Source: Sulfurimonas sp. (lineage in GTDB: Bacteria; Campylobacterota; Campylobacteria; Campylobacterales; Sulfurimonadaceae). From it: a stretch of DNA of 64,000 bases. Positions 19,021 through 64,000 of this stretch are shown piece after piece; within the stretch, counting starts at the first letter, position 1; the number at the start of each line of letters is the position of its first letter. The notes beneath the pieces were generated by a model that saw only the letters and a program-made list of their open reading frames with translations, searched no databases and was not told the DNA's origin. The DNA lies in contig CBDETZ010000003.1 in NCBI GenBank assembly GCA_965243085.1, positions 29,720 through 93,719 of the forward strand, read 5' to 3'. The position numbers and the translations under genes were made by a program.

Positions 19021-19130
19021 GAGACTGTGAAAGAACTGTCATTCCGTACTTGATACGGAATCTAAAAGCCCTTAAACGCTAGATTCTGAATCAAGTTCAG
19101 AATGACTTTTTAGAGTTCTTTCACAGTCTC
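19021..19130. mobile_element. MITE-D (110 bp, REP-pair core)
   Basis: 17-bp perfect IR gagactgtgaaagaact, tta TSD; inverted copy at 61507-61616. Confidence 0.9.
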
Positions 19131-45562: not shown

Positions 45563-45660
45563 ATATAACAAGGGTGTTGAAGACGAACATTTTAGCAGGA
45601 TAGTTTTTATAATATGTTAATGTTTTTGGTGCTAAAATGTCGCTTAACTAATAGTTAAAG
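45563..45660 (+). other. Integron attC site (98 bp)
   Basis: R'' atataac / R' gttaaag; left arm ttGaagAcgaAcattttagca pairs with tgctaaaatgtcgcttaa, leaving three extrahelical bases. Confidence 0.8.
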
Positions 45661-45693
45661 GTAAAATAACAAATACAATACATAGGAAATATT

Positions 45694-46744
45694 ATGCCAA
45701 CAGTACCAAGTCTTTATGGATTAAAGAAAACAAATCGTGATTATACAAAAAAAGAAACTTGGGGGGAAGAACCAATTTAACTCTTCGTTTCCAGCATCAT
45801 TGTGTTGTTACTTAGAATCAAAAGATATTCAAGCCAATTACCTTTCAATTCAAAATAAACATTTTTCTGCAACATCAACAATAAAAATAAGTGAAGTTTT
45901 TGGAATATCATCAAAAGATAATGATATTTATTTTGCTTTTGAAGCTCAACATACACCTTTCCAAAAATATGTTATTGGTACATTACCAAGAACAGACTTA
46001 GTAATTCAGAAAGAAAGTAATGGAGAATGTTTATCAGGATTAGAAGTAAAACTTACAGCATTACCGGATAATAGTACACATACATTAACAGAAGCTTGCT
46101 ATGGAAGTGAAATCGTTGTACGTCCGGATACAATTGTTTACTTAGCCTGTAGTATAGCTTCTAATTTAGATGAAAAATTAAAAGACTGCATTCCTGATAT
46201 TGAACTTGATTGGGCAGATGCATCAGCAGTTTTACATGAAATAGTAACTATAGTTGAATCGATTAAGAGAATATCAATTATTTTGGAAGCAAATCAAAGT
46301 CCATTTTCACTACAGCCAGTTTGGAAAACAAAAGGCAAATCACCTGCTCTTGCAGATAATTGCTTAGATATATTTGTATGGAGTGATGCTGGTTTTTGTA
46401 ATTTTATTTCTAGTATTTCTAACAGTGACCCAAAAGCTACAAAAATAACTAGGCAAACAAGAACAGCTATTTGGCTTTTTAAGATGTTACTAGATATAAA
46501 AAAATCAGGAAAGTTTGACCATGAATCAATAATTGACAACCTTTCTTATAATACAAAAAATGATAAAGCCTTTGCCTCTTCTGGAAATATTACAAATTCA
46601 TATATGTCTTGTACTAGATTAACAACTCCAATTGTTACAAAAGCAGAAATAAAGAAAATAATTTTGGGCGGAGGTCAAAATTTATTAAGCCCCAAACGTA
46701 GGTTTGATGCCATAATATTTAATTCACCTGAGCTATTTGTATAA
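45694..46744 (+). pseudogene. HindVP-like type II restriction endonuclease with a +1 frameshift
   Basis: MPTVPSLYGL...TWGKNQFNSSFP is restored by removing one G of the G6 at 45761-45766; LEVKLT PD-(D/E)xK-like motif. Confidence 0.75.
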
Positions 46745-46746
46745 AT

Positions 46747-47813
46747 AGACTTCTTGCAAAACTCATTTTCCAGCAACCTCAAATCCACGGTCAAAATTAA
46801 CTAATCCACATATCAGATTGAAGCGAAGATTGAACCTTTTTCTACGGTTACGATATTTCTGTTTAAGGATTTGAAAAGTCTTTAATTTAGCATTGATATG
46901 TTCAACACATATGCGAGCTGAAGCTTCTCTTTTATTTTGATTTTTTTGTGTATCAGTTAATGGATGTAGCTTTGATTTCTTATATGGTATTTGAGTGTTA
47001 TTATGTTGCTTTTTAATACCAAGATAGCCTAAATCTACATAGATACAAGTTTGAGGTTTCACAGGTAAATCACTCTGTTTAAAGAGTTTAAAATCATGAG
47101 TAGTACCTTTGCATGTATGAGCACAAATAATACGTTCATCCTTGTCAATAACGATTTGCCCTTTTAGTGTATGGTTTCTTTTCTTCCCTGAGTAGTAATC
47201 TCTTTGCTTTTTTTTGGTCGTTGTATGGGGGACTCTGTAGCATCAATGACGATAAACTCTAAGTCCATATCATCTCCATATAAAGCACGTTTACTTGGTA
47301 ATGAAAACTTTCCAGATTTTATTAAAACATCTTCAACATCTCTTACTATTCGAGAAGCTGTAGATTCACTTACTCCATAATCAAAGCCAATAGACTTCTT
47401 GCAAAACTCCTATATGCATTAGCACTTTATAGAGAGTTTTAATCAAAGTAAATGTTCTCAAGCGTCGCCAAAGCTACGGTTGGGGTTCTTTGACGCTGAG
47501 TAAGGCTCTCTATAAAGTGTCCTATGCAAGGGACAGTACGTACTAACCTTGCATAAAAAAATATTTTACCCTTAGCTTAGGCTAGGAATAAAAATTTGTT
47601 TTACACAATTTTAGTCCTTCTTAGCTCTCTGAGGTATAGAGGAGTTTTGCAAGAAGTCTAATATGTTCTAAGGTTCTATATTCTCTGTAATAACTTAACA
47701 TTAATAGTACTTTTTCTTTTGAATCTAAACTTTTTCTACCACCAACTCCATGGTTTTTAGTTCTCTCTTTTTCATAGGCTATAAATACTAAAAGCATTTC
47801 ATTAAATGTATCT
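46747..47813 (-). mobile_element. IS5 ISL2-like element, 5'-truncated, with MITE-A
   Basis: Right IR at 46747; homology to 22492-23407 stops at ~47813. Confidence 0.9.
47392..47659 (-). mobile_element. MITE-A (subtype b)
   Basis: IRs, aat TSD. Confidence 0.95.
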
Positions 47814-48051
47814 CTTATTATAACACTAAGCATTTAGGGATGCGAAGCACTTGGAAATTGTAAGATTTTATGACAAAATGCAATATTTCTAAACTTTTCG
47901 TAAATATTTGCTTAAAATATTCTTATGCCTGAAATGTATCTTAGTCCTTAGAGGCTGTAATAAAGAAAAGGCTCATGTTTTAATACTGAAAAGAATAATA
48001 GGCTATATGCCTGAATAAGAGAATAGTTAGAAAACATAAAAGGATAAAATT

Positions 48052-49025
48052 ATGACTAATATAAATGACATAACATATATTGGCGTTGATATTGCAAAAG
48101 ATAAAATTGATATTTGTATAAATAATGGTAATTCCTCAGGTCATGTATATAGCTCCTACTCCAATAATTTGGATGGTTTTCTAAACTTTTTTCTTTTAGC
48201 TAATAGTATTAATCACTTAAAAAATATAAGGATAGGTCTTGAAGCAACAAGCACCTACATGATAGCATTACAAAAATACTTAGACCTTCATGAAATAAAA
48301 TATATATTAATCAATCCAAATAAATTACATCATTTCATAAAATACAAACATAAAGAAAGTAAAACAGATAAGCTTGATAGTTACTACATCTCAGATTATA
48401 TAATGACATTACGAGATCGAAACTTTAATAGTACTCACTCATCAAGAAAAACGCTTTTTCAGTCTTATAACGCTTATATTAACCTAATCACAACAACAGA
48501 AACAAGGCTAAAAGGTCTTAACGATAGTATCTTAAGCAATGATTTCACAAGCCAAGCTTTACAAAACCAAATCAAAAATTTGAAACTAGCCTTAACTAAG
48601 ACAAAAAATGTAGCACAAAAAGATTTCCTAGAAACTCTCAAAATTTCTATGCCTGAATAAAAAATGATTTGGTTGGTGTAGGAGATAAAACCTTGATGGC
48701 AGTTTTACCAATAATCTACGATATCTCAAATAAATATTCTCTTAACCAACTTCAAAGCTTAGTAGGTCTTGACCCAGTATATAAAAATAGTGGTTCATCA
48801 GTAAATAAAAAACAAAGAATAAGTAAAAAAGGAAATTCAAGAGTACGAGCGGTCCTTTACATGTCCGCAGTATCCTCAATCCGTTCAAATGCAGACCTAT
48901 CACTAAAATACAATCGTCTATTAGACAATGGCAAGCCTCCTATGTTAGCACTAGTCGCAATCATGGCACATATATTTCGAGCAATAGTAAAGAAACTAAA
49001 CTACTACAAAGCTCTCAATGAATAG
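48052..49025 (+). pseudogene. IS110-family DEDD recombinase/transposase, frameshifted
   Basis: YIGVDIAKD, GLEATS, KTDKLD (RuvC-like) then GVGDKT...GLDP...SG.S...ISKKGNSRVRAVLY (Transposase_20-like); stop at 48660, continuation in the -1 frame. Confidence 0.9.
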
Positions 49026-49134
49026 TTAGATTTCTAATGCTTACTAGATTTTAGCTCTTCATTGCTTTCTCTTGGTTTAGTAAGTATTAGAAACTTAATT
49101 AACTTTAAGTACTTTAAAATAATAGGAAACATAA

Positions 49135-49536
49135 ATGCCAACAAAAACAACAAAACCTGAAAGTTCACAAGAAGATATAAAAGATTATTCTCCTCAAAAT
49201 CTAAGCCAAACAAACCCTGCTTTATTTATGGAAAGATATAACAAAAATGAAATTTCTCTTGCTGGTAAAGTAATTGACTTAACAACATCTGACCCTAAAC
49301 CAAAATACGAAAAAGATGGTAGTACACAAGTTATAAATGAAGATGGCAGTATGGCTTTTTGGGAGCCTTTTTACTCAGCTGAAATTATCTTTGAAGGTGG
49401 TTCTATGAGAATGAATTTGCAGTCTTCTATTTATCAAGGTTTGGTAGTAGGTAAAAGATACCTCTTTGAGGGAATGATGGGCTTAGAGTTTAAAAAAATT
49501 AATCCTAAGTTCTACAATGCAACTTTAATAATGTAG
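49135..49536 (+). CDS. Putative single-stranded DNA-binding (OB-fold) protein
   Basis: 133 aa, beta-strand pattern, RBS agga; sits upstream of an RCR Rep. Confidence 0.45.
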   Translation: MPTKTTKPESSQEDIKDYSPQNLSQTNPALFMERYNKNEISLAGKVIDLTTSDPKPKYEKDGSTQVINEDGSMAFWEPFYSAEIIFEGGSMRMNLQSSIYQGLVVGKRYLFEGMMGLEFKKINPKFYNATLIM

Positions 49537-49545
49537 GTTTCCTTT

Positions 49546-49851
49546 ATGCTTTTGAAGAATTTTTCAAGGGCTGAACAAGATTACATTATATTTATGGATA
49601 GTGGTTCAAGTGTTCCTTATCATATGGAAGACGTTCCTTACTATCCTATCCCAGTAATCAAGTTAGAAACTCTTGAATATGAAGACAAGCTTTATATCAA
49701 GTCTAACTCTTTTTATTGCGTTGGTACACGCTTACACTCTTTTGTAAGAAAAATATCAGCACAAGACTATAGAAAAATAAAATCAGAAATAGAAGCTAAA
49801 AAGAAGTCTAATAGCATAGTTGGTAAACAATTAGTTATGGACTTTTCTTAA
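49546..49851 (+). CDS. Hypothetical protein
   Basis: 101-aa ORF in a compact operon. Confidence 0.6.
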   Translation: MLLKNFSRAEQDYIIFMDSGSSVPYHMEDVPYYPIPVIKLETLEYEDKLYIKSNSFYCVGTRLHSFVRKISAQDYRKIKSEIEAKKKSNSIVGKQLVMDFS

Positions 49852-49875
49852 AATTCTATATTTTCGTTTATCTCT

Positions 49876-49898
49876 CCCCCCGTGGTTTAACAAGGGGG
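49876..49898 (+). other. Putative double-strand origin/nick hairpin
   Basis: ccccccgtggtttaacaaggggg, a GC stem with TTAACA in the loop, 70 bp upstream of Rep. Confidence 0.65.
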
Positions 49899-49968
49899 TA
49901 TCAGTAGCCATTAAAAATGAACAAGTCTCTATCGGTAGCCAAATACAAAAAGGAAGAAAAACAAACCT

Positions 49969-52832
49969 ATGAATATAATCTCTCAAACAGTAGACACAAT
50001 AAAAACTCATTACACAATATCAAAAAATATAAATGATGAAGACTTTCTTTTCTATTCTAAAATAATCAAAACTCTAATATCTTTAAAAAAAGACTCACAA
50101 GAACTAAAAAATAACTATGGTTCTATAAAAACAGTTAATTATACTTTTGGTGATTTTAGATTTAACATACTACCAACCTCAATAACTGGTTTCTCCATCG
50201 TAATGCAAAATTCAGATTTCCAATTAGCATTAAGACAATCTAAAAGTAAAATAAATGCTTCACCTCTCATAAAAGCCGAATTTAGAGCAGAATTTCTAGC
50301 AAGATTAGGCTATATAAAATGTTTAGAAATAGTGAATAATTTTGTAAAAGAGTACATTTTAACTGACTGTGAAATAACTATTAGTGAAATACATCTAGCA
50401 TCAGACATACAAGGCTACGATTTTAAGCTATCTCACTTCGCTCAAATGAAAACACGCATGAGAACTGGTAATACTCATGATGAAGAAACTTTAGAAGCTT
50501 CTGCTAGCGTTCATGGTACTATTACTACCTTTACTGGCTTTACATTCGGTAAAGGGGCACCACAATCCACTAAAAATTAAATTTCAAGAGTTGAGCGATA
50601 GAGTCATCTAAATCCCATCTATTGTTAATGAGTTGTTCTTGTATAGATTTTGTACCATTTAGGTGCAAGATATTTAAAATAATGCTTCTGATAATTGTCA
50701 TTAAAAATGGATTTAGATGAGCATTATGGTCATCTTCTAAAAGTGTATTATCTTTGTATTGGTGCATTGTTTCTACCTTCCAATGGAGTAAAATTTTATC
50801 ATGAAAGAACTCCGCATTTTCACGAAAATTTGCTATACAGAACTGAATACTAGTGCTGTTTGTTACTTCTCCTGTTTTATGGTTTGTCTTGTGTATTTTT
50901 TTAATAGTTTTTATGATTGAGCGAACATGGGTAATTTCATTATGATAAAAAGTAGTTGGTTCATATATAAATACTTCTCTATTTATCCACTCATTAGATT
51001 GCTGGATTGGTTTAGCTTTATAAGTGCTTGATGGTTTTATCTCTCTTGATATTTCATTTATTTTATCAAGAAGTGTTTTTTGGTTACCTTTAACTTTAGC
51101 AATATATTTTGAACCACTCTGCTCAATAGAATCAAGAGTTTTTTTGTGTGTTCATCGCATCAAAGGTAAAGAGAAATTCATCTCCAAGCTCTGCTATCAT
51201 AGCTTGTAAAGCAGGTATTTCATTTGATTTCTCTGCAATTTTTTGATGAGCAATAACTACACCTATCTCTGATAAAACTGCACCAACAACTTCTATAGCC
51301 TTTTGGTCTTTATATCTGCTACCATTCATCACTTTACCATCTACGCTTAGATGTTTTCCTGTAGTATCGACATAAATTCTTATCCATTCTCTAAACAAAA
51401 GTTCTACTGCCTCACTATCAACTTTTGCAAGTATATCTGAGACAGCACTTCTTTTTGGTGTTATTATAAATTCTACACCTAGAAGTTTTTTTACTTCTTC
51501 TTTTTGAACATGTTTATCTATCCAAATAGAGATTTGTTTGTAATCTGTAGCTCCCATTAGTCCAGCTAATATAGCTAGATATAAAATATGTTCTAGTTTA
51601 TGCCGTTTCCCTTGACCCTTACGATGGTCTGGAACTCTTGATAGTAACTCTAAAAGTTTATTTGATTCAGCTATTTTTGCATAACCTTTTCTTGAACGCT
51701 TATGTGCTAATTTATCTCTTGCTTTTATTGCCATTTTCTTATCACCTTGTTTTTCTCAAAAGCAAGCAATAATTATTCCACTTTTAATTTCTAGTTATTA
51801 ATGGATTGGGGTGGTAAAGGGGATTACCTACTAAGGATTTACGATAAAACAAAGGAAATTAAAACTTTCAAACATAAATCATTTGCAAAAACTCATTTAT
51901 GGCAAAATAATAAAAATTATAATCCTGATTTGAAAGTATGGCGTTTAGAAATACAAATAAGAAGAGCTAAATTAAAGAAGATGGTTAATTCAAATGGAAA
52001 CACAATGGATAACTATCACAACTGTTTAAACGGAATACCTGATTTATGGTCAAAAGCTCTAGAAGATTATGAAATAAAAGATGTACCAAGAGATAAAACT
52101 TCTGACTTATTCCACGGTGATAGAGTTCAAAAAAATGGTAAAACAGTACTTCTTACAAAACATTCAATAACTAAAATATTTAAACGCTCTCCAAGTCTAT
52201 ATTTTTGGGAAAAACTAAAAACATGGAACCATAACGATAGATTTAACAAAGACATAAAAAAAATAACATGGACTACTAAAAACATAAATATAACTCCTTT
52301 ATATTATTTTGATTACTTAAAACAATTTGGATACTTACCCATCTCAACAGCTCCTAAAACTCCTAATCATGGTTCACAAGAATATGTAAATAATTCTATA
52401 AAGTCTCTATATTCCACACTAGCAAAGCATAAAGGTTCAGTTACAAAAAAAACATTAATAGAAGCCTTTAAAATTGCAAACGAGGACAGTATAAAAAGAA
52501 ATGATGTCTCTCTATTAGAAGATAGTTTTAATAAGCAGTTGGACTGGATGGAACTTGTAGATGGTCATGTTCATTCAGGTGTTCTAAACACACCAGACTA
52601 CAAGTCCTTAGAAACTGAAATAGTAAATGTTATCTCAACTTGTGATAATCACATTAAAAATGTTTTATATTCAGAAGATATTTTACTTAGAATAGAAGCT
52701 CGTATGCACTCTCTCAAACATACACCAGATAAAGTTATTTACAAAGACCTTGACTATCTTGACTCTATGACTACCCGATTAGAAGCAAGACTAGCATTCC
52801 ACCCTATGGAGTACAATCATGCTTTCCGCTAA
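49969..52832 (+). pseudogene. Rep_trans-family rolling-circle initiator interrupted by ISAs1
   Basis: Removing 50558-51822 gives FTFGKGDYLLRIYDKTKE...VWRLEIQIRR; also the ISEIHLASD motif. Confidence 0.82.
50558..51813 (-). mobile_element. ISAs1 type A
   Basis: IRs, perfect 9-bp TSD gtaaagggg. Confidence 0.93.
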
Positions 52833-52965
52833 CGAGCTATTAGTCATTAAAGAATTAGCAATCTTCGGAGAAAAACATAATATCAATAAAACAAATATAT
52901 CAAAAAAAATAGATTTAACTCAAAAAACAGTAAGAAATATTATAAAAAAATTAAAGGAACTCTAA
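52819..52965 (+). CDS. Small winged-HTH DNA-binding protein (48 aa, absent from the ORF track)
   Basis: MLSANELLVIKELAIFGEKHNINKTNISKKIDLTQKTVRNIIKKLKEL; overlaps the Rep stop and ends 1 nt before the next ATG. Confidence 0.65.
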   Translation: MLSANELLVIKELAIFGEKHNINKTNISKKIDLTQKTVRNIIKKLKEL

Positions 52966-52966
52966 A

Positions 52967-53356
52967 ATGTCAAAATTGAATGAACAATCTTCAAGATGGG
53001 ACACAATTAAATATTTTAAAAAAGAAGATTTTGATTGTAGATGTGGCTGTGGTCTCAATAATATTGACTACGCCTTAGTGTTCAAATTAGATAGCGTCCG
53101 TAAGCTATCAGGTATCCCTATCTTTGTTAATTCAGCATGTAGGTGTCATCCACATAATAAAATTATAGGAAGTACTGTAGGCTCTTCACACCCTAAAGGA
53201 CTAGCAATTGATATTCGAATTAGAACCCCCACCCAAAGATTTAAGATCTTAAATGCACTTATAAAAGTAGGTTTTTCTCGTATAGGAATTTACAGAAATT
53301 TTATACATATTGATTTAGACTTATCTAAAGTTCAAAATCTAATCTGGTATAGATAA
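52967..53356 (+). CDS. Peptidase M15A-type D-Ala-D-Ala metallopeptidase (endolysin-like)
   Basis: YFKKEDFDCRCGCG, VNSACRC..HN, SSHPKGLAID, IGIYRNFIHID. Confidence 0.88.
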   Translation: MSKLNEQSSRWDTIKYFKKEDFDCRCGCGLNNIDYALVFKLDSVRKLSGIPIFVNSACRCHPHNKIIGSTVGSSHPKGLAIDIRIRTPTQRFKILNALIKVGFSRIGIYRNFIHIDLDLSKVQNLIWYR

Positions 53357-53379
53357 TTATTTAAAAAAGGATACAAAAA

Positions 53380-53640
53380 ATGCCAAATTTATTCACAATG
53401 GTTCTTCCATATTTATTAGAAATGCTCTTAGCATATATCAAAAGTTCAGATACAACACAAGACGATAAAGTACTAAAGATAGTACAAGAAGGTGCAAGAT
53501 ACTTAGCTCCATGCCCTAATAACAGTTTACAATACTTTGAGGCTGATAAAATTGCAAATGCAACTATGACGACTAAATCTATTGATATTGTACTTCCATC
53601 ATTTGATAATGATGATGGTTTAGCTGATTGGGGTGAATAA
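53380..53640 (+). CDS. Small phage-like protein with hydrophobic N-terminus
   Basis: RBS aagga; follows the peptidase; holin or virion role not established. Confidence 0.6.
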   Translation: MPNLFTMVLPYLLEMLLAYIKSSDTTQDDKVLKIVQEGARYLAPCPNNSLQYFEADKIANATMTTKSIDIVLPSFDNDDGLADWGE

Positions 53641-54533: not shown

Positions 54534-54568
54534 AAAAAAATAATATAAAAAAAAAAGGAGTTTTATTT

Positions 54569-55090: not shown

Positions 55091-56151
55091 ACATTTTAAC
55101 CATAGCCCCATATTTACTGACTATAGGTGGAGTATTAAAATCTTTCTTCCAGTCAAGAAAAACAATAGATATTTTAGCTACTTCCGCAACCATTACCTCT
55201 ATGGTGAACTCTCACCAGTTGAAAATCAAAGAAGCAACGGATACAGACTTAGCGTCATCTCTTGGTGATATAGAAGATTTTGTTTCAGCTGGTCTACCTG
55301 AATTTGAGAAAGACTTTAGAGTTTCAATAGCCAATCCTACTACAATGCCTCACTATCTCAAAAATCAAAATGACTTGGCTATGGCTCAAATAGAAAAGAC
55401 TAACAACCTCACGGAGCAAATGAAGTTCCAAAATGAACTTATAGCAAGGCAATCAAAAGAGGAGTTAAAAAGAAATTCTGTACTTTTTTCAATGGCAGAA
55501 ACAGTGACTGCAGTGCTACCTGCATTAGTGATACAACTTCAAGAAGTTTCTAAAATCGCTAGTGTTATCTCAATCTCTTCAGATATTGAAATCGCTTATC
55601 GTGAGGTTTCTCTAGTTAATCATACTGAACTTATTAAGACTCTTGGTGCTATTACTACGGCTATGAATACAAGTACAGAAACTAAAACAGCTTATGCAGA
55701 GCTATCTTTAACAAATCATGCTGAACTAGTTAGAACTATATCCGTTATAGCATCTAACTTATCATCTGTTTCAAACTTGGCAACATACCAAACAACAGTA
55801 GCAAGTATTACTGATTTAGATGGTAATGTACTAGCACAACTTAGCCCACAAGAACTTTCATCATACAAAGATTTTTCTCTAGCTCGTGCAAAGGAAAAGG
55901 AAAAGGAAATAGGAGACTATCAAACAACACCAGTAGCCATAAAAAACCTTGATGGTAACACAGTAGCAACAGCCAAACCAATGGAAATAACAGCAATTAA
56001 AGACGCTGTGAACACAAAAAATGAAACTGATGAAATGGAGTTTGAATTAGATGAGGAAACACTAGACTATGTTTTTAGTCCTCTTCCTCTCCCAGGTTTC
56101 ACAAAAGCAACACTTGATGAAGATTACAAAGAAATAATAGAAGGAATGTAA
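55087..56151 (+). CDS. Hypothetical protein with two internal repeat pairs
   Basis: 354 aa; 32-aa period (YREVSLVNHTEL / YAELSLTNHAEL) and 44-aa period (YQTTVASITDLDGN / YQTTPVAIKNLDGN). Confidence 0.8.
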   Translation: MNILTIAPYLLTIGGVLKSFFQSRKTIDILATSATITSMVNSHQLKIKEATDTDLASSLGDIEDFVSAGLPEFEKDFRVSIANPTTMPHYLKNQNDLAMAQIEKTNNLTEQMKFQNELIARQSKEELKRNSVLFSMAETVTAVLPALVIQLQEVSKIASVISISSDIEIAYREVSLVNHTELIKTLGAITTAMNTSTETKTAYAELSLTNHAELVRTISVIASNLSSVSNLATYQTTVASITDLDGNVLAQLSPQELSSYKDFSLARAKEKEKEIGDYQTTPVAIKNLDGNTVATAKPMEITAIKDAVNTKNETDEMEFELDEETLDYVFSPLPLPGFTKATLDEDYKEIIEGM

Positions 56152-56153
56152 GA

Positions 56154-56951
56154 ATGGTAAAGCAAGATACGATAACATACCAAACATATAGTGCTAAACC
56201 AAGTATTTTAGGAACTGGTGCAAAGTATGGTATAAATGAAATGGTAGAGACTGGTGTATCAATGGGATTGATGCAAGGTAGAAAAGTAGTAGTAGAGGGT
56301 ATTACGAAAGATATACAAAATGAGTTTGTTAAAGATATGCTTCAAGATGGTTTGAGTGCCGGTCTAGGTTTCTTCTCAAATCAAGCAATGCAATTGCAAG
56401 AAAAGCTACTAGAAAAGGGTTATAATTCTGGTCTTGCTGTCGTCGCAACTTATTATAATAAAGGACTTATTAAAAGGAAATTTCAGCAAAAATTTGGTAG
56501 AGGTCGTAAGGCTACTATGTTTGCTAAATTTCTAGGAGGTAATAATAATAGGGCAGAGGAGAGCCGATTAATAGCTGACTTTGTTCAAATGGATATAGAC
56601 TCTTCGGCGAGTTCTCACGATACTCTAGCTCGTCAAGGTGTCTTAGAAAATCAATTCGTAAATGAAACTCTACAAGTGCAAAAAGAGGGGGTTAGTGCAG
56701 ATATAGCAAGGTTGCAAATTGACGGAATGCGTGACACTTTTGATATGAAAGTAAAAACTTCTTCATTTTTTGTTACTGATAAAAATTTAATTAAGAATAT
56801 GACTGGAATGTCAAGCGTTAAGGATAAGCATATAAAAAAACTAAACTCTTTAAGTGGCTCTATGGTTTTTGAAGATAGTGAGGGTAACTATGTTGGTTAC
56901 GCTGAGGCAGTCACAATTTTAATGAATGGAATGGGGCTACATCGTGCTTAG
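56154..56951 (+). CDS. Hypothetical Gly-rich helical protein
   Basis: 265 aa, translationally coupled to the previous gene. Confidence 0.75.
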   Translation: MVKQDTITYQTYSAKPSILGTGAKYGINEMVETGVSMGLMQGRKVVVEGITKDIQNEFVKDMLQDGLSAGLGFFSNQAMQLQEKLLEKGYNSGLAVVATYYNKGLIKRKFQQKFGRGRKATMFAKFLGGNNNRAEESRLIADFVQMDIDSSASSHDTLARQGVLENQFVNETLQVQKEGVSADIARLQIDGMRDTFDMKVKTSSFFVTDKNLIKNMTGMSSVKDKHIKKLNSLSGSMVFEDSEGNYVGYAEAVTILMNGMGLHRA

Positions 56952-56954
56952 ATT

Positions 56955-57239
56955 TTATTCTATTATTCTTTTTCCATTCTCATCGAATTTAAATTTACTC
57001 ATCTTTTCTAGTATTTGTCTATGGTCTTCGTCTATATCTGCACTGGTTGGACTCATCAAAAAGAGGAACATGCTTATCATCGCTATTATTGTTAGAAACT
57101 CTAAAGCCCTATTTTGCCTATCAGATAAACTATCAACCCACTTACCAAATTCATATAGGACAATCTCAAACCCTAAACCAACTTTCTCCAACCCTAAACC
57201 AATCTTTTCAAGGATATACATATGAGCAACCTTTACCAT
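56955..57239 (-). CDS. Small membrane protein
   Basis: One TM segment; convergent with the main operon. Confidence 0.5.
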   Translation of the reverse strand: MVKVAHMYILEKIGLGLEKVGLGFEIVLYEFGKWVDSLSDRQNRALEFLTIIAMISMFLFLMSPTSADIDEDHRQILEKMSKFKFDENGKRIIE

Positions 57240-57349
57240 GTTAAATTAAAAATAGGCAAACGAACCTTTACAGACAAGGTTTACGCTAATTCTTCTGATA
57301 GCATTATAGCATTTTATAAACAAGCATGTGAAGCTAAAGTTATGGAGAT
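57222..57349 (+). pseudogene. ORF truncated by ISNCY
   Basis: MSNLYHVKLKIG...KVMEI then reads into the IS end. Confidence 0.4.
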
Positions 57350-58969
57350 CAGCAATTCTAACCCAACACCAAAAATCACCACTCAATCATTTTTACAACA
57401 TTAAAAAATAATTAACTAAAAACTTTTTATAGCCGTTAGTATTTTTTACGACTTCAATATCTTCTGTTTTTATTTCAATAAAGCTCCAATTATCACTATT
57501 AATGGGAGTAATAGTATTTTTGACATAGGTATAGCCTTGTGAATATTTACTAGTCCAAATGGATACCATCTATATAGCCTTTTATCATTGTTTGATAGAG
57601 AATATCCCAATCTAAAAAGTAAAAAAATGTTGTGAAAGTATTGATATGGTTAAAGAATGTTTTTCTCTTGTTTATAAGTCCATATAACTCTTTATAATCA
57701 TCATCATATGTTAAGCATAGTGTATGAGTTAAGAATGCTAATATGTTAAAAACAAATAGCAACTCACTTAGTCCTTTTTTGCCGTGTCCAAAGTTATGTT
57801 CAAGATTGTAACCTCCTGTTTTTAATGTATTATTATTCTCATTTTCAATCTTCCATCTAGCACGACCTGCTTCTACAATCTCTTCTACATTTTCATCTTT
57901 AATTATATAGTCTGTTATAAAAGCACCACTATAAATTATCTTCCCTTTTACCTCTTTAACTTCAACACTACACCAATTTACTTTTATAGGATTCTTTTCT
58001 CCTGTAAGTTCTACTTCATGTAGATATTTATAGTTGTAACTCTCTTTTTTTCTTTGTTTATTTAGTTTAGTAGCTGTTTTAGTATCCATATTACCGAGGT
58101 TATCAACCATATGTACAGTTTCATATAATTTTTTATGAGAAGTCTCTTTGCAGACAAATATATAGTTATACTCTTTCTCTCTTATCTTTTTAATAAGTGA
58201 AGTCTTTGAATATAAATCATCGCCCAAGAGTACTAGTTTATATTTTTTAGCGAGTATATGTGTTTTATCTAACCATCTTTTGGATGCGTTAATCTCACAA
58301 TCTTGTTTATCATCTCCATCCGTATTTGATATCATCTCTGGTAATAATGGAAGTATTGTATTGGTCTTTGGTTTTGCTATTATTGGTGTTATTGCACTAT
58401 GGTAATATTGAAGAGTCTCACTACCTTTAGTATCTGTTTTTTTTCTTGTTTGACAATGCTCACAATGTATTTTTGTTGAAGAATGGTAGTAAGTGCCATC
58501 AAGAAGAACAAGGAGTGTCTTATTATCAAAATAGGTATATTTTTCTAAGGTTTTTTTTTCTAAAAGTAGTTTATATATTTTATCGAATGTAGGTTGTAGT
58601 TTATCACTATCTATATCATCTAATGTATCTCGTACATGATTATCACTTGGTATCTTTTTTATACCAAATAGTGATTTAGCATTACTTTTACCGCTTTTTG
58701 TATTCATTTTTCTTGCAAAGTCTAACCAAGATGGATTTTGAAAATAATACATTGCAAATGCTGATAGTGTTATATCACTCATTGTATATATTAGTTTCTC
58801 TTTACTCCTTGAATCTGGTAGTTTTTCAAACTCTTTTGCTATAAGACTTATTATCTGTTTTTGAAAATTCATTTATAAATTCTTTACTGCTAATTTTTAA
58901 AAGTATAGCAATTCTTATACCTTTTATTTTTTTACAAATTTTTTGGGGTAGAGTGAATTAGAATTGCTG
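57350..58969 (-). mobile_element. ISNCY-like element (transposase 57550-58872)
   Basis: Same as 12700-14319; flanks do not match, so no TSD. Confidence 0.92.
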
Positions 58970-60840
58970 TTTCACAGGTAGATCACTCTGTTTAAAGAGT
59001 TTAAAATCATGAGTAGTACCTTTGCATGTATGAGCACAAATAATACGTTCATCCTTGTCAATAACGATTTGCCCTTTTAGTGTATGGTTTCTTTTCTTCC
59101 CTGAGTAGTAATCTCTTTGCTTTTTTTTGGTCGTTGTATGGGGGACTCTGTAGCATCAATGACGATAAACTCTAAGTCCATATCATCTCCATATAAAGCA
59201 CGTTTACTTGGTAATGAAAACTTTCCAGATTTTATTAAAACATCTTCAACATCTCTTACTATTCGAGAAGCTGTAGATTCACTTACTCCATAATCAAAGC
59301 CAATATGTTCTAAGGTTCTATATTCTCTGTAATAACTTAACATTAATAGTACTTTTTCTTTTGAATCTAAACTTTTTCTACCACCAACTCCATGGTTTTT
59401 AGTTCTCTCTTTTTCATAGGCTATAAATACTAAAAGCATTTCATTAAATGTATCTTTATTTACACCAATAAGACGCTTAAAATTCTTTGGTTCTTTCTTC
59501 TGTAATTTTTCATATTTATTCATATCAATCTTACCCCAATCCATTAATAACTAGCACTTAAAAGTGGAATAATTATTGCTTGCTTTTGAGAAAAATAAGG
59601 TGATAAGAAAATGGCAATAAAAGCAAGAGATAAATTAGCACAAAAGCGTTTAAGAAAAGGCTATGCAAAAATAGCTGAATCAAATAAACTTTTAGAGTTA
59701 CTATCAAGAGTTCCAGACCATCGTAAAGGTCAAGGTAAACGGCATAAATTAGAACATATCTTATATCTAGCTATATTAGCTGGACTAATGGGAGCTACAG
59801 ATTACAAACAAATTTCTATTTGGATAGATAAACATGTTCAAAAAGAAGAAGTAAAAAAACTTCTAGGTGTAGAATTTATAATAACACCAAAAAGAAGTGC
59901 TGTATCAGATATACTTGCAAAAGTTGATAGTGAGGCAGTAGAACTTTTGTTTAGAGAATGGATAAGAATTTATGTCGATACTACAGGAAAACATCTAAGC
60001 GTAGATGGTAAAGTGATGAATGGTATCAGATATAAAGACCAAAAGGCTATAGAAGTTGTTGGTGCAGTTTTATCAGAGATAGGTGTAGTTATTGCTCATC
60101 AAAAAATTGCAGAGAAATCAAATGAAATACCTGCTTTACAAGCTATGATAGCAGAGCTTGGAGATGAATTTCTCTTTACCTTTGATGCGATGAACACACA
60201 AAAAAACTCTTGATTCTATTGAGCAGAGTGGTTCAAAATATATTGCTAAAGTTAAAGGTAACCAAAAAACACTTCTTGATAAAATAAATGAAATATCAAG
60301 AGAGATAAAACCATCAAGCACTTATAAAGCTAAACCAATCCAGCAATCTAATGAGTGGATAAATAGAGAAGTATTTATATATGAACCAACTACTTTTTAT
60401 CATAATGAAATTACCCATGTTCGCTCAATCATAAAAACTATTAAAAAAATACACAAGACAAACCATAAAACAGGAGAAGTAACAAACAGCACTAGTATTC
60501 AGTTCTGTATAGCAAATTTTCGTGAAAATGCGGAGTTCTTTCATGATAGAATTTTACTCCATTGGAAGGTAGAAACAATGCACCAATACAAAGATAATAC
60601 ACTTTTAGAAGATGACCATAATGCTCATCTAAATCCATTTTTAATGACAATTATCAGAAGCATTATTTTAAATATCTTGCACCTAAATGGTACAAAATCT
60701 ATACAAGAACAACTCATTAACAATAGATGGGATTTAGATGACTCTATCGCTCAACTCTTGAAATTTAGTTTTTAGTGGATTGGGGTGTATCAATCTGATA
60801 GCATTTTTAGTTCCTACTTTTAGAGTTTTGCAAGAAGTCT
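58970..60840 (-). mobile_element. IS5 ISL2-like element, 3'-truncated, containing ISAs1
   Basis: Left IR at 60840; halves rejoin across the tatcaatct TSD. Confidence 0.9.
59532..60787 (+). mobile_element. ISAs1 type A
   Basis: IRs, 9-bp TSD tatcaatct. Confidence 0.93.
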
Positions 60841-61087
60841 AATTTAAAAATAGAACACTCTCCAACAAAAGTTGAAACATCACAAAGAAATCATATACAC
60901 TTATCTGTTCGTGGTTTTATAAAACTTGAGAAACTTCGATTAAACTATAAAATGAACCACTTTGCCATTAAGGAAAAAATATATATTGAGGCTCTCCAAG
61001 TCGCCTACCAAAAAGTTGAAGAATTACAAGTTGCTTAGATTTGTAGCACTTCTTAAACTTTATGAATTTAGATTATCGTAACATCAG
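60841..61087 (+). mobile_element. IS701 3' fragment
   Basis: Transposase tail plus IR ending aacatcag. Confidence 0.9.
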
Positions 61088-61435
61088 TTTATAATATACA
61101 ATGATATAAGTAGGAATATATAAAACAATAGTGATTGTATGTATGATTACGATAGCCCATATTACTTTCATATCTGCATTTTCAGTACTCAAAGTGTAAA
61201 TATCATAAACTAAACTTAGTATGTGCCAAGATAGCAATATAGGTAAATAAGTTTTCCAAATTATTTTTTTAAATATATTTTTGTTTTTTACATACTCAAA
61301 AATAGCAATTAATGAAATAGTGTCTATTAATAAATTAAAGTAAGCCCTTACTCCATAACTAGAATCTATCAGTTGAAATCCGTAAACATATAATGCAACC
61401 ATAACGAAAAGATAAATCTTCAAAGCTGTTTTCAA
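61088..61435 (-). pseudogene. Small membrane protein, probable integron cassette ORF, cut by IS701
   Basis: Starts ~16 bp after the attC R' box with RBS aagga; about 4 TM segments. Confidence 0.65.
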
Positions 61436-61451
61436 TTTGTGTCCTTTTGTA

Positions 61452-61631
61452 AGCTAACGGCAGTCGTGAGCGATAATTTTCCTTTAGGTAAATTATTCGT
61501 TCCTCGGAGACTGTGAAAGAACTCTAAAAAGTCATTCTGAACTTGATTCAGAATCTAGCGTTTAAGGGCTTTTAGATTCCGTATCAAGTACGGAATGACA
61601 GTTCTTTCACAGTCTCTCGTATTTGTTAGCA
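61452..61631 (-). other. Integron attC site (~67 bp) disrupted by MITE-D
   Basis: Minus strand tgctaac...gttagct; arms cgagGaacgaataatttacct / aggaaaattatcgctcacg; starts 7 bp after the HerA stop. Confidence 0.65.
61507..61616. mobile_element. MITE-D
   Basis: 17-bp IR, tcg TSD. Confidence 0.9.
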
Positions 61632-61638
61632 TTTTAAG

Positions 61639-63324
61639 TCACTTCTGTTGCTTTCTTAATGCTTCAACGGCTTGTTCAATACCTTTATCTTCTTTAGCTT
61701 TACTCCATACATCCCAAAAGTCTATGGTTGCACTATTAGGTTTTATTGTTGGTTCATCAATTCTTACTCTACTTGGCAGCAGTGATGCATCTCCAACTAT
61801 CAAAGCTTCTCCAATATCTAAAATTGGTAATAATTCAGAAAAATCTCCTAAATTATCAGGAAATAGTCTTTTGATTACATTTTGATCATCAGGATTAGTT
61901 AATCTCATTGCTATGAAATTCCCACATTGACTTAATATCGTTTTATTTACATCTGAAGGTCTTTGGCTAATAACAACAAGAGAGATCCCATATTTCCTAC
62001 CTTCTTTAGCTATCCTTTCAAAGCTTTGCAGTCCTTTTTCTTCTATGCTCCCTTTAGTCTGAGCAGGTAAATAAAGATGTGCTTCATCACAAAAAAGTGC
62101 TATCGGATGTCTTTTTTCTTCTTCCATCCATTGCTGAATAGAAAAAATTAATCTGCCGATTAATCCAGTAATAAGAGGTAAAATATCAGATGGGACCTCA
62201 GAGAAATCAATAATTTTCAAACCTTTATCATTTCCAAAATCTAATAATTTATTGGCTAATTCTAAAAACCAGTCATATTCTAGGAGAGCATTATCCGCGT
62301 TAAAAATAAAATTTAATCTTTTATCAGATTGCTTACTACTTAATCTTTGCACAAAACGTGTGAGTTTTCCATTTAATGGACCTTGCTTTTCACTTCCAGC
62401 TCTGGCTCCAGGGACCATTTCAGTATCTTTATCTTGTAGTGAAGATAATACATCATTAAGTTTATATGGAATTGGACTTTCAACAGTAAAGTTATTTAAT
62501 ACATCAGTTTTACCATCTTCAACAAGTTTTTCTTTTTTATATTTAATAATTAAATCAAAAAGTGTTCTAGATTGATTTGGAGCATTCGCATCACTTCTAT
62601 CTAAAAGCAAAGATTCAACTTCTTCATAAGATAAAAGCCAATATGGCAAAAATATTGTATCAGTATCACTTGGAGTGTCTGATGGTCCAGCAATTTTAAG
62701 TAACGTAGTATTATGTAAATCTTTTAGTGGTTTATACTCACCATGTAAATCAAATACAAGACTATTAATAGATTGAAGTGCAGAAGCTTTTTCGAGTATA
62801 TTTGCTACTGTCCATGACTTTCCAGACCCTGTTCCACCAACAATAACAGCATGTCTTTGGAAAAATTTATTACCATCTAAGTTTGCATTTGATTCTTCCG
62901 ATATGGTATATTTACCTATTGTTAAAGGATTCTCACTACTTGATGAAATAATATTCATAAATGCAGAAAGCTCGGCTTCTTGTAATAAAAAACAATCTGC
63001 ATTAATACTGGGAACTGTGTCTAATGTTCTCTTAAAAGTATTACGTGCTGTTCCAGTCCTTTCTATAAGCGTACCTACAAGGTTTACTTTAATTATATTT
63101 TCAACAATATAGTCAGGTTCTCCACTTTCGTCAATTTTATCAGAAATTGCCTTTCTCATGATTTTTGATATAAGACCTATGATAGTTTGACCTGTTTTGG
63201 TAGAACGTACTTGAACTATTTGATTCACTTGCACACTGTTTAATAACTCTTCCTTATCTACTTGAACAGTAATACTTCCAGTATCAACACTTTGTACTTT
63301 TCCAATTAATGAGTTAGGGTTCAT
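61639..63324 (-). CDS. herA: HerA-family ATPase (DUF87), partner of Sir2
   Basis: N-terminal HAS-barrel-like region, RHAVIVGGTGSGKS, FDLHGEY, DEAH, IAKEGRKYG...SQRPS. Confidence 0.9.
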   Translation of the reverse strand: MNPNSLIGKVQSVDTGSITVQVDKEELLNSVQVNQIVQVRSTKTGQTIIGLISKIMRKAISDKIDESGEPDYIVENIIKVNLVGTLIERTGTARNTFKRTLDTVPSINADCFLLQEAELSAFMNIISSSSENPLTIGKYTISEESNANLDGNKFFQRHAVIVGGTGSGKSWTVANILEKASALQSINSLVFDLHGEYKPLKDLHNTTLLKIAGPSDTPSDTDTIFLPYWLLSYEEVESLLLDRSDANAPNQSRTLFDLIIKYKKEKLVEDGKTDVLNNFTVESPIPYKLNDVLSSLQDKDTEMVPGARAGSEKQGPLNGKLTRFVQRLSSKQSDKRLNFIFNADNALLEYDWFLELANKLLDFGNDKGLKIIDFSEVPSDILPLITGLIGRLIFSIQQWMEEEKRHPIALFCDEAHLYLPAQTKGSIEEKGLQSFERIAKEGRKYGISLVVISQRPSDVNKTILSQCGNFIAMRLTNPDDQNVIKRLFPDNLGDFSELLPILDIGEALIVGDASLLPSRVRIDEPTIKPNSATIDFWDVWSKAKEDKGIEQAVEALRKQQK

Positions 63325-63326
63325 AA

Positions 63327-64000
63327 TTATAATATCTCCATAAATTTATTTAGTTGCCAATAAGAGCCATCGATTTCTAGACTTATTTCGGTTGAATCTT
63401 TTGATGTTTTATATGTAATTTTAGTTTTATTCTCATTCGAAGAGTCTTCTAAAAAGATATACTTATCAGCATCTTTTAACTCTTCCTTTGTATTCTCTGT
63501 TACTTCCTTTGTTATTAGTACAATAGGTATACCTTTTTTTACTTTCGCACGAATTTTTGGTGTCAGATGTTCATCATTAAATCCAAAACCTACAACAAGA
63601 AAACTGGAAGCGGTTTCAATTAAGCTATCTGATTTTTGAATTAGTTCTCTATAAGGGCTGTGATAAGCTTCTCTATACTTATTTTTGCTTGGTGTTATAA
63701 TTTGAGGCTCGTATTTATCTGAATAACAGTTAATGTATCGAATATCATCATTTACATTAAACCAATTGAGAGAGCCATGTACTTTAATTAAATTAACCAT
63801 ATCTCTATTTTTAAATAAAGTATTATCAAATATTGAAAGCATTTTTCCGTTAAAACCATCAGTAAAAGGGATATTATTATATGATAAAACATATTCCAAT
63901 ACCCTATCATAGTTAGTTGTAATAATATTTACAACTTTTGGATGAGTGTAAATAAGTTTTTCAATTAATACTTTAACCCCATTAAACTCTGGATTGCCTG
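63327..64000 (-). CDS. SIR2-like NADase of a Sir2-HerA anti-phage system (5' part outside the window)
   Basis: Frame is open to the window edge; IITTNYD, KVHGSLNW, GFGFNDEH motifs; 2 bp from herA. Confidence 0.88.
   Translation of the reverse strand, partial: GNPEFNGVKVLIEKLIYTHPKVVNIITTNYDRVLEYVLSYNNIPFTDGFNGKMLSIFDNTLFKNRDMVNLIKVHGSLNWFNVNDDIRYINCYSDKYEPQIITPSKNKYREAYHSPYRELIQKSDSLIETASSFLVVGFGFNDEHLTPKIRAKVKKGIPIVLITKEVTENTKEELKDADKYIFLEDSSNENKTKITYKTSKDSTEISLEIDGSYWQLNKFMEIL

What the first reader, a model, noticed from the sequence alone, without database searches (positions are those of the whole stretch)
45563..64000. Fragments of a defence-rich integron cassette array without an integrase (CALIN-like)
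Seen: two attC sites on opposite strands 16 kb apart, one preceding a REase and one directly after a Sir2-HerA pair. Known: Sir2-HerA is an anti-phage NADase/helicase system, and integron arrays carry defence cassettes. Inference: a shattered chromosomal integron in which a >2.3-kb two-gene defence system was a single cassette.
Basis: partly seen in the sequence, partly recalled or inferred. Interest (0 to 1): 0.68.

Follow-up and report, generated by a model that had tools for sequence, protein, structure and literature searches.

The report
Broken-up integron array of defence cassettes
The two hairpin sites are real integron recombination sites (attC) marking what is left of a chromosomal gene-cassette array that held a restriction-modification pair and a Sir2-HerA anti-phage pair, later torn apart by insertion sequences and colonised by a small mobile element that inserts into attC sites.

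Summary
Observation confirmed, interpretation supported and sharpened. Site A (45563-45660, +) and site B (61452-61631, -) are attC sites. A covariance model built only from attC sites of related integrase-linked arrays ranks them first and second in 85 kb (E 7e-9 and 0.05). Sequence identity with other copies stops exactly at the G|TT crossover. Bona fide integron integrases sit next to arrays of the same attC family in related hydrothermal-vent Campylobacterota contigs.

New points:
- Site B is split by a 110-nt MITE.
- A third, atypical, MITE-split site lies beyond the window between sir2 and a C5 methyltransferase.
- That methyltransferase is the partner of the HindVP-type restriction enzyme. 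One IS inserted between the REase stop and the MTase start, and a later rearrangement inverted the MTase-sir2-herA block. This explains the "opposite strands, 16 kb apart". A vent metagenome contig still carries the intact junction.
- sir2-herA (about 2.76 kb) is a single cassette, seen behind three different upstream and before four different downstream neighbours.
- No intI was found in about 240 kb sampled from this genome; attC sites are scattered and about half carry the MITE.

Defence cassettes in integrons are already known, so the main finding is a new member of a known kind. The attC-targeting MITE is the unusual part.

The parts
45326..45568 (+). ORF80, a hypothetical small cassette ORF; its stop codon lies in the R'' box of site A
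   Evidence: ORF list. No family hit. A second, ~98% identical copy of its 3' end plus attC A lies elsewhere in the same genome, before a different downstream gene (L159). K-mer depth 45-290 versus 6-7.6 for the REase.
45563..45660 (+). attC site A: R'' ATATAAC, L'' GTT[G]AAG[A]CG, 34-nt variable loop, L' CGCTTAAC, R' GTTAAAG
   Evidence: Architecture score 21, best in 146 kb, 0/200 shuffles reach it. R3 21.6 bits, E 0.047, full length. Identity with L159, L157 and L108 copies ends exactly at the GTT of R'. Generic class 1 model R1 finds only the right-hand half, E 3.3.
45694..46744 (+). HindVP-family type II restriction endonuclease gene, frameshifted in a G6 run (45758-45763); the longest in-frame ORF starts at GTG 45737
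   Evidence: Pfam RE_HindVP 1.2e-135. 35.5% identical to E. coli plasmid HindVP REases. N-terminus MPTVPSLYGLKKTNR..WG aligns only when read through the G run. Contigs of runs X1 and X2 show no indel there.
46745..47830 (-). IS-X (IS5 family, ISL2-like, TSD ANT), inserted at AAT directly after the REase stop codon. It retains positions 116-929 of the 0.94-kb element and itself carries a 274-nt IS-X-derived MITE at 47389-47662
   Evidence: Repeat and junction analysis. The same TSD AAT and the opposite IS end abut the MTase ATG at ext 65445.
47831..61072 (.). Filler between the two halves of the former array: an IS110-family element (48052-49025, split ORF); a phage-like block (49135-57400, with an M15 endolysin-like peptidase and a replication-like gene cut by an ISAs1-like IS); a 440-aa DDE transposase IS (57550-58872); further IS-X, ISAs1 and IS4-like fragments
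61073..61435 (-). ORF120, a small predicted membrane protein and the cassette downstream of sir2-herA; its own 3' end is cut by an IS fragment
   Evidence: No attC is detected after it.
61452..61631 (-). attC site B ('down'): 67-nt family attC (TGCTAAC-AAATA-CGAGGAACGAATAATTTACC..GGAAAATTATCGCTCACGACTGCC-GTTAGCT), interrupted by a MITE
   Evidence: R3 51.9 bits, E 6.6e-9. R2 59.6 bits (this site was in that training set). Aligns with 30 metagenome copies; 90.9% of cells paired; compensatory pair UA16/GC9/AU2.
61507..61616 (-). 110-nt palindromic MITE (GAGACTGTGAAAGAACT..AGTTCTTTCACAGTCTC), 3-bp TSD TCG/CGA, inserted 5 nt 3' of the R'' AAC of site B
   Evidence: DNA fold -35.5 kcal/mol, z -9.9. 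Copies and TSDs. 8 of 9 copies in the genome sample lie at the same position of attC sites.
61639..63324 (-). herA (561 aa)
   Evidence: PADLOC HerA 2.9e-231; Pfam DUF87/HerA_C.
63327..64000 (-). sir2 (319 aa; its 5' third lies beyond the window, to ext 64286). Further on: atypical attC 'up' with a second MITE copy (ext 64325-64494), C5 DNA methyltransferase (ext 64467-65444), IS-X left end (ext 65445-65568)
   Evidence: PADLOC SIR2 7e-107. L001 gene table and sequence. MTase TIGR00675 1.4e-50 and 57% identical to M.HindV of E. coli plasmids.
19021..19130 (+). The only MITE copy seen outside an attC: inside an IS630-family transposase gene, at CCTAAC + 5 nt, TSD TTA
   Evidence: removing it restores ..NLPYAW..

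Best explanation
The finding is the wreck of a chromosomal integron cassette array (a CALIN) in an IS-ridden genome from a hydrothermal-vent setting. The genome is most likely a Sulfurovum-like member of the Campylobacterota.

The original order, all on one strand, was: ORF80 - attC A - [hindVP REase + hindV C5 MTase] - attC 'up' - [sir2 + herA] - attC B - ORF120.

Each bracket was one cassette. Each was captured and shuffled by an integron integrase that recombines the folded bottom strand of attC at G|TT.

Later events, in order where it can be told:
- One IS5-family element (IS-X) inserted at AAT between the REase stop and the MTase start.
- A rearrangement with a breakpoint inside that IS inverted the MTase-sir2-herA-ORF120 block. 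The block now lies about 18.7 kb away on the other strand. Other IS elements and a phage-like fragment fill the gap.
- A 110-nt MITE that inserts 5 nt 3' of the R'' box split two of the three attC sites.
- The REase acquired a frameshift.

Functional reading:
- sir2-herA presumably still acts as an abortive-infection NADase/ATPase pair (inferred from family membership).
- The MTase is intact.
- The REase is probably off.
- The cassettes are probably no longer mobile here. Two attCs are split, and no integrase lies within the 240 kb sampled.

Shown: attC identity, cassette boundaries, the IS split, MITE positions. Inferred: order of events, present activity, taxon.
For: attC identity:
- The lineage covariance model R3 was built only from comparator sites. 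It gives site B E 6.6e-9 and site A E 0.047; the next independent hit is E 5.3.
- Structure counts on 31 family members: 90.9% of cells paired, against 25-41% when the partners are slid, with one strongly compensatory pair.
- Conservation in 30+ copies stops at CGTT(A).
- One upstream cassette is joined to at least 7 different downstream sequences.

Integrase link:
- IntI homologues (41-46% identical to IntI1) lie divergent from arrays of this attC family in L120, L102 and L111.
- L120 IntI scores 418.6 bits on TIGR02249, cut-off 265.
- L138 has IntI next to rpiB-lepB-folD, with 9 attC hits all on the opposite strand.

Single-cassette status of sir2-herA:
- The same 5' junction follows three different attCs and genes, and the 3' attC precedes four different downstream sequences.
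- An 85%-identical pair sits between GmrSD and a Tsp45I R-M in an array with another attC family.

Site A: a second copy in the same genome, with identity ending at GTTA.

R-M split:
- Both junctions carry the TSD AAT and opposite IS-X ends. Removing the IS gives TAA directly followed by ATG.
- The MTase is 57% identical to M.HindV, which neighbours HindVP REases.
- A vent-metagenome contig runs from the REase 3' end straight into the MTase start.

Scattering: 14 more attC sites in at least 4 regions of the same assembly, and no IntI.
Against: - A generic attC model that I built from 27 class 1 attCs gave no hit with E<=1. The IntegronFinder model itself could not be run.
- E-values from my models are rough. 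Site A's 0.047 could be about 0.25.
- Site A has spacer lengths 6/5, whereas every true class 1 site I scored had the 3' spacer at least as long as the 5' one.
- The 'up' site is only about 50 nt once the MITE is removed. It is detected by no model, so the upstream boundary of the sir2-herA cassette rests on junction comparison alone.
- In other lineages an 83-84%-identical sir2-herA pair sits inside type I R-M operons with no attC, so the pair also moves by other routes.
- The exact rearrangement path is not resolved. 20 nt of IS-X are present on both sides of the break.
Confidence: 0.88

Rival explanations
1. The array is not dead. An integrase encoded elsewhere in the genome still acts in trans on the intact attC sites such as site A, so this is a working, merely dispersed, integron.
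For: Site A is uninterrupted and has an identical copy before a different neighbour in the same genome, so exchange was recent. About half of the attC sites sampled are MITE-free. Only about 240 kb of the genome was examined.
Against: No IntI lies in 73 kb plus 170 kb. None of the 120 closest relatives of the lineage IntI sits on the 642,904-bp or 193,833-bp contigs of this assembly. Duplicated cassettes could equally come from IS-mediated duplication.
Confidence: 0.25
2. The sites are ordinary repeated extragenic palindromes or terminators of this lineage. The defence genes form a conventional defence island assembled by IS elements, unrelated to integrons.
For: The genome is extremely IS-rich. 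sir2-herA occurs in non-integron defence islands elsewhere. My class 1-trained model is not significant.
Against: The repeats lie next to bona fide integron integrases in the canonical divergent layout. They carry the R''/R' boxes ..TAAC/GTTA.., with bulges on the expected arm. Sequence identity between copies breaks precisely at G|TT. There is no T-run as in terminators.
Confidence: 0.04
3. Chance: two hairpins with AAC..GTT ends in AT-rich DNA.
For: 189 AAC..GTT pairs with at least 6 of 7 complementary box positions occur per strand. Site B's architecture score of 14.5 is reached about twice per shuffle.
Against: Site A's score was never reached in 200 shuffles. Both sites have near-identical relatives in other contigs, with conserved structure.
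Confidence: 0.01

Closest known systems
Sedentary chromosomal integrons and CALINs carrying anti-phage defence cassettes (Darracq et al., bioRxiv 10.1101/2024.07.02.601686; Kieffer et al., 10.1101/2024.07.02.601719; CALIN as defined in Cury et al. 2016, PMC4889954)
   Same: attC-bounded cassettes encode defence systems, here a type II R-M and a two-gene system. The array lacks a nearby integrase. Toxin-antitoxin and small unknown ORFs are neighbours in related arrays.
   Different: The host lineage is vent Campylobacterota with its own 67-nt attC family. The array is broken by IS elements into pieces on both strands. The cassettes are large: about 2.1 and 2.76 kb here, and a three-gene R-M of about 3.5 kb in L120. 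The cited survey reports that systems in integrons never exceed 2 components.
SIR2-HerA anti-phage system (family as in PADLOC and DefenseFinder)
   Same: A SIR2-like gene directly followed by herA, with full-length matches to the PADLOC SIR2 and HerA models.
   Different: Function was not tested here. In this lineage the pair travels as an integron cassette, whereas 83-84%-identical pairs elsewhere sit inside type I R-M operons.
HindV / HindVP-type type II restriction-modification (as annotated on small E. coli plasmids, e.g. AP026749)
   Same: The REase is 35.5% and the MTase 57% identical to the plasmid pair.
   Different: The genes are co-oriented and abutting (TAA-ATG) rather than divergent. 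Here they are split by an IS and separated by 18.7 kb, and the REase is frameshifted.
attC-targeting mobile elements: the IS1111-attC group (ISPa21, ISPst6, ISKpn4) and group IIC-attC introns (PMC3001079, PMC11187229)
   Same: Insertion is site-specific, near the 5' end of attC sites, and recurs in many cassettes.
   Different: The element here is a 110-nt non-coding palindrome with 17-bp terminal inverted repeats and a 3-bp target duplication. It encodes no transposase, seekRNA or reverse transcriptase. No parent element was found.

Membership tests
Integron attC site | R'' (RYYYAAC) and R' (GTTRRRY) boxes that pair, with the crossover at G|TT | tested here: met
   Site A: ATATAAC / GTTAAAG. 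Site B: TGCTAAC / GTTAGCT. The family consensus has invariant CTAAC and CGTT. Identity between copies ends at GTT.
Integron attC site | Imperfect hairpin: an unpaired central spacer, L''/L' boxes, and extrahelical bases on the arm that becomes the 3' arm of the bottom strand | tested here: met
   Site B has spacers 5/6 and two extra bases in the 5' arm of the top strand. Site A has bulges G, A, A in the 5' arm, but unusual 6/5 spacers. On the family alignment 90.9% of cells are paired, with compensatory changes.
Integron attC site | Significant score with an attC covariance model (IntegronFinder uses E<1) | tested here: inconclusive
   The IntegronFinder model was not available. My class 1 model R1 gave no hit with E<=1. 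The lineage model R3, built from integrase-linked arrays without window sequence, gave site B E 6.6e-9 and site A E 0.047. The 'up' site was not detected.
Integron attC site | Recombined by an integron integrase | not testable with these tools
   Only indirect evidence: the same cassette in different contexts, and IntI adjacent to arrays of the same family.
[quoted passage not shown] | At least 2 attC sites within 4 kb on the same strand, with no intI nearby | tested here: met
   'up' and site B are 2.9 kb apart on the - strand (both MITE-split). In the reconstructed order A, 'up' and B are 2.1 and 2.9 kb apart. There is no IntI in 73 kb. As the DNA now stands a standard run might report nothing, because A is alone on its strand and the other two sites are interrupted.
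Complete integron | An intI gene with attI next to the array | tested here: not met
   tblastn with lineage IntI and IntI1 gave nothing in ext or in L150-L159. The rest of the genome was not searched.
SIR2-HerA defence system | Adjacent SIR2-domain and HerA-family ATPase genes | tested here: met
   PADLOC SIR2 7e-107 and HerA 2.9e-231; the genes are 2 nt apart.
SIR2-HerA defence system | Phage-triggered NAD+ depletion and protection from phage | not testable with these tools
   Inferred from family membership only.
Type II R-M system, HindV type | A cognate REase and C5 MTase encoded together | tested here: met
   Both are homologous to the plasmid pair. The ancestral adjacency is reconstructed from the TSD and IS ends and seen intact in run X7. 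In this genome they are now separated and the REase is frameshifted.

The most novel reading that the evidence does not exclude
The 110-nt palindromic MITE is a new kind of attC-specific parasite. It is a non-autonomous element whose unknown recombinase or transposase reads the integrase-binding R'' box (..TAAC) and inserts exactly 5 nt downstream, separating R'' from L''. By occupying about half of the attC sites it may have helped to freeze and then break up the integron of this genome. A bolder version, which the evidence does not exclude, is that the element is moved by the integron integrase itself or by an IS1111-like enzyme supplied in trans.
Probability: 0.5. Interest if true: 0.7.

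Novelty: new member of a known kind. Interest (0 to 1): 0.55.

Why it matters
- It extends the 'integrons as biobanks of defence systems' picture to deep-sea vent Campylobacterota.
- It gives direct comparative evidence that large multi-gene systems move as single cassettes: sir2-herA at 2.76 kb, a two-gene R-M, and a three-gene R-M in a relative.
- It documents how such an array decays: IS insertion splits an R-M pair, an inversion scatters the pieces, and the REase is lost by frameshift while the MTase survives.
- It shows a practical blind spot. With two attCs split by a MITE and the third alone on its strand, standard integron finders would probably miss the locus.
- The attC-targeting MITE, if confirmed, adds a third class of element that preys on attC sites.

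Tried and rejected
- Rfam at gathering thresholds: no hit in the window.
- Treating site B as one long attC: rejected once the 110-nt palindrome proved to be a MITE with target duplications.
- Energy-only detection of attCs in GC-rich class 1 arrays gave mostly false positives and was replaced by an architecture score.
- The generic covariance model R1, from 27 class 1 attCs, was not significant on the window. It found only half-sites of A and 'up' at E 3-9. I judge this a limit of a small, GC-rich, aadA-dominated training set, but it is a negative result.
It returned almost only class 1 integrons, so it gave no species-level comparators.
- The taxon could not be read from cluster names, because window proteins are masked. 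It is inferred from the names of IntI relatives and from run labels.
- Search for the MITE in viral contigs: none.
- PHROGs on the intervening block: only an endolysin-like M15 peptidase.
- I could not derive a clean single-step inversion model. 20 nt of IS-X occur on both sides of the break, and the far breakpoints lie in an IS110 element and an unidentified 290-nt stretch.
- The 'up' site could not be folded into a canonical attC.

Full report
COORDINATES. 'ext' means the window extended by the source contig. L001 is the reverse complement and overlaps the window over 12,362 nt with no mismatch. Window position = 73325 - L001 position.

1. THE GENES.
- The window is about 30% G+C and full of insertion sequences.
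- 45737-46744(+) is a HindVP-family type II restriction endonuclease (Pfam 1.2e-135; PADLOC REase_II).
- 61639-63324(-) is HerA, and the ORF running off the window at 63327(-) is SIR2 (PADLOC 2.9e-231 and 7e-107).
- The source contig (ENA ERZ25074789, 642,904 bp) shows sir2 complete at 319 aa. Directly upstream of it lies a C5 DNA methyltransferase (L001 7881-8858 = ext 64467-65444).

2. THE 110-NT PALINDROME IS A MITE.
It is a 110-nt element with 17-bp terminal inverted repeats.
- It occurs three times in ext, each copy flanked by a 3-bp direct repeat. Copy one is inside an IS630 transposase gene (19021-19130, TTA). Copy two is inside site B (61507-61616, TCG). Copy three lies between the MTase and sir2 (ext 64367-64476, CTT).
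- It therefore has to be removed before the sites are judged.

3. ARE THE SITES ATTC SITES?

(a) Architecture score.
- I scored the published features: paired R''/R' boxes ending in AAC and starting with GTT, spacers of 4-7 nt, and an L stem with bulges allowed only on the 5' arm.
- I calibrated the score on about 33 true attCs taken from 75 class 1 integron loci. They score 14-22.
- On the MITE-healed 73 kb, site A scores 21. This is the best candidate on either strand; the next scores 16. No dinucleotide shuffle out of 200 reached 21.
- Healed site B scores 14.5 with canonical geometry, but that value alone is not significant.

(b) Generic covariance model. A model built from 27 class 1 attCs gave no hit with E<=1. 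This is a negative result, which I attribute to a narrow training set.

(c) Comparators for sir2-herA.
- HerA has hundreds of relatives at 80-97% identity, mostly on 2.7-3.5-kb contigs.
- In L089, upstream of sir2, there is an uninterrupted 67-nt relative of site B. Our sequence becomes identical to L089 from GTTAGCATACATCC onwards, although the upstream gene differs.

(d) The repeat family.
- A metagenome scan with a 5'-arm motif returned 39 loci. About 33 of them belong to one repeat family.
- Conservation begins at CTAAC and ends at CGTT(A).
- One and the same upstream cassette is joined to at least seven different downstream sequences.
- On 31 aligned members, 90.9% of cells are paired, against 25-41% when the partners are slid. 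One pair is clearly compensatory: UA 16, GC 9, AU 2.

(e) Integrase link.
- tblastn finds integron-integrase homologues next to, and divergent from, such arrays in L120, L102 and L111.
- The L120 protein scores 418.6 bits on TIGR02249 'integron integrase', cut-off 265.
- Its relatives are named Sulfurovum sp., Campylobacterales and Sulfurimonas crateris.
- L138 is a 249-kb contig with IntI beside rpiB-lepB-folD and nine attC hits on the opposite strand, i.e. a sedentary chromosomal integron.

(f) Lineage covariance model.
- R3 was built only from 39 comparator sites and holds no window sequence. Those sites had, however, been collected with R2, whose training set included healed site B.
- On the window plus L001 it gives 61452-61519(-) at 51.9 bits, E 6.6e-9, and 45563-45660(+) at 21.6 bits, E 0.047, aligned full length. 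The next independent hit is E 5.3. E-values are rough.

(g) Independent support for site A.
- The same genome holds a second copy of the ORF80 3' end plus attC A that is about 98-100% identical. Identity stops right after TAATAGTTA.
- A deletion variant with a third downstream context also exists.
- L108 carries the 3' half next to a family attC, again diverging at GTT.

I conclude that A and B are attC sites. The site between the MTase and sir2 ('up': GCCTAAC, then about 50 nt, then GTTAGC once healed) is atypical and is found by no model. Its 3' end is nevertheless the cassette junction shared with L089 and L141-144.

4. ONE CASSETTE FOR SIR2-HERA.
- The 5' junction G|TTAGCATACATCC follows three different upstream units. 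These are the MTase plus 'up' here, an RHH gene plus a family attC in L089, and a 301-aa ORF plus a 57-nt attC in L141-144.
- The 3' attC is followed by four different sequences: here, L090, L119 and L141-146.
- Healed, the cassette is about 2.76 kb.
- An 85%-identical pair lies between GmrSD and a Tsp45I R-M in an array with a different, longer repeat ending ..GCCAAACCGTT.
- Pairs at 83-84% identity sit inside type I R-M operons without attC, so the module also travels in other ways.

5. WHY THE SITES ARE ON OPPOSITE STRANDS.
- The IS5-family element IS-X has ends AGACTTCTTGCAAAACTC.. and a target duplication ANT. More than 25 ends occur in 73 kb.
- Its right end abuts the REase stop codon with AAT. 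Its left end abuts the MTase ATG, also with AAT. Removing it gives ..TTTGTATAAATGACTTGT.., i.e. TAA followed at once by ATG.
- The MTase is 57% identical to the M.HindV that neighbours HindVP REases on E. coli plasmids.
- A contig of vent metagenome run X7 matches the REase 3' end and runs straight on into GACTTGTGTAGATTTATTTTCGGGTTGTGG, the MTase start. The intact operon therefore exists in nature exactly as reconstructed.
- The REase-side copy keeps IS-X positions 116-929 and the MTase-side copy keeps positions 12-135. A later break inside the IS therefore inverted the MTase-sir2-herA-ORF120 block. The detailed path is unresolved.

6. STATE OF THE REASE.
- The conserved N-terminus (MPTVPSLYGLKKTNR..WG) starts at ATG 45694. 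It is out of frame with the rest because of a G6 run at 45758-45763.
- Contigs of two runs reproduce the window without any indel.
- The enzyme is probably inactive or phase-variable. The MTase ORF is intact, except that the MITE replaces its last few codons.

7. THE REST OF THE GENOME.
- Looking up a multi-copy transposase returned eight further 21-kb pieces of the same assembly.
- They hold 14 more attC sites in at least four regions and in both orientations, and no IntI.
- None of the 120 closest IntI relatives lies on this assembly's two known contigs.
- 'Shattered, integrase-less' therefore holds for about 240 kb. The remainder is untested.

8. THE MITE TARGETS ATTC.
- Nine copies were seen. 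Eight lie in attC sites, always 5 nt 3' of the R'' ..TAAC and with a 3-bp duplication.
- Seven of these eight share one orientation, and one is itself cut by an ISAs1 element.
- The ninth copy is at CCTAAC+5 in an IS630 gene.
- Eight of the 17 attC sites carry it.
- Known attC-targeting elements are IS1111-attC insertion sequences and group IIC-attC introns, which also insert near the 5' end of attC. I know of no MITE with this behaviour (own knowledge, not an exhaustive search).

9. CONTEXT AND VERDICT.
- Defence systems in integron cassettes are established. A RefSeq survey found 783 systems, small ones favoured and never more than two components. Sulfurovum NBC37-1 has been reported to have two CALINs.
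- The main finding is therefore a well-supported new member of a known kind, with an informative decay history and one probably new side observation.

Noticed in passing
window 61507-61616, 19021-19130; ext 64367-64476; L157 and L159 (several): A 110-nt palindromic MITE inserts at one fixed position of attC sites, 5 nt 3' of the R'' ..TAAC, with a 3-bp TSD. 8 of 9 copies are in attCs, and 8 of 17 attCs sampled are occupied. No autonomous parent was found.
   Followed up: yes
window 45694-45780: The REase is frameshifted in a G6 run (45758-45763). The conserved N-terminus is in another frame. Contigs of two runs show the same run length, so it is not an assembly slip. Either a pseudogene or phase variation.
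   Followed up: partly
L120 7279-10698: In a related complete integron, a three-gene R-M unit (Dam-like MTase, 461-aa protein, second MTase; about 3.5 kb) lies between two attC sites. This is larger than the 'never more than 2 components' reported for integron defence systems. The first cassette of that array resembles the anti-phage protein DS8 (E 1.8e-48, below cut-off).
   Followed up: partly
L100, L107, L109 (directly after the attC GTT): Three family attCs are followed by GTTGT..hairpin..ACAACGG(G/C)GG(C) structures, e.g. GTTGTCCGCTCACTGCGTGACCGGACAACGGGGGCGC. This may be the end of another attC-targeting element, perhaps a group IIC intron or an IS.
   Followed up: no
window 44011-44290, 44832-45074, 47389-47662, 54018-54291 and more than 20 other ends: A 250-274-nt MITE derived from IS-X (same ends, TSD ANT) is extremely abundant. 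K-mer depth of IS-X is 400-1000 against 6-8 for single-copy DNA in the source runs.
   Followed up: partly
window 49135-57400: A block of co-oriented unknown genes with an M15 endolysin-like peptidase (52967-53356) and a replication-like gene cut by a 1255-nt ISAs1-like element (50558-51812). Probably a small prophage remnant.
   Followed up: partly
window 48052-49025: An IS110-family transposase split into two ORFs (202 + 118 aa), sitting at the breakpoint inside IS-X next to the REase.
   Followed up: no
window 1-32000 versus the ENA contig: By coordinates the ENA contig ctg56788 should end near window position 32000 (in an ISAs1 copy). The window therefore comes from a longer or differently joined record of the same genome.
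   Followed up: no
L155 17828-21323 (same genome): A type II CRISPR-Cas locus (cas9, cas1). Elsewhere in the same genome there is a 2112-aa RHS/teneurin-like protein (L154) and an AAA_15/HNH pair (L158). The genome is rich in defence and toxin genes.
   Followed up: no
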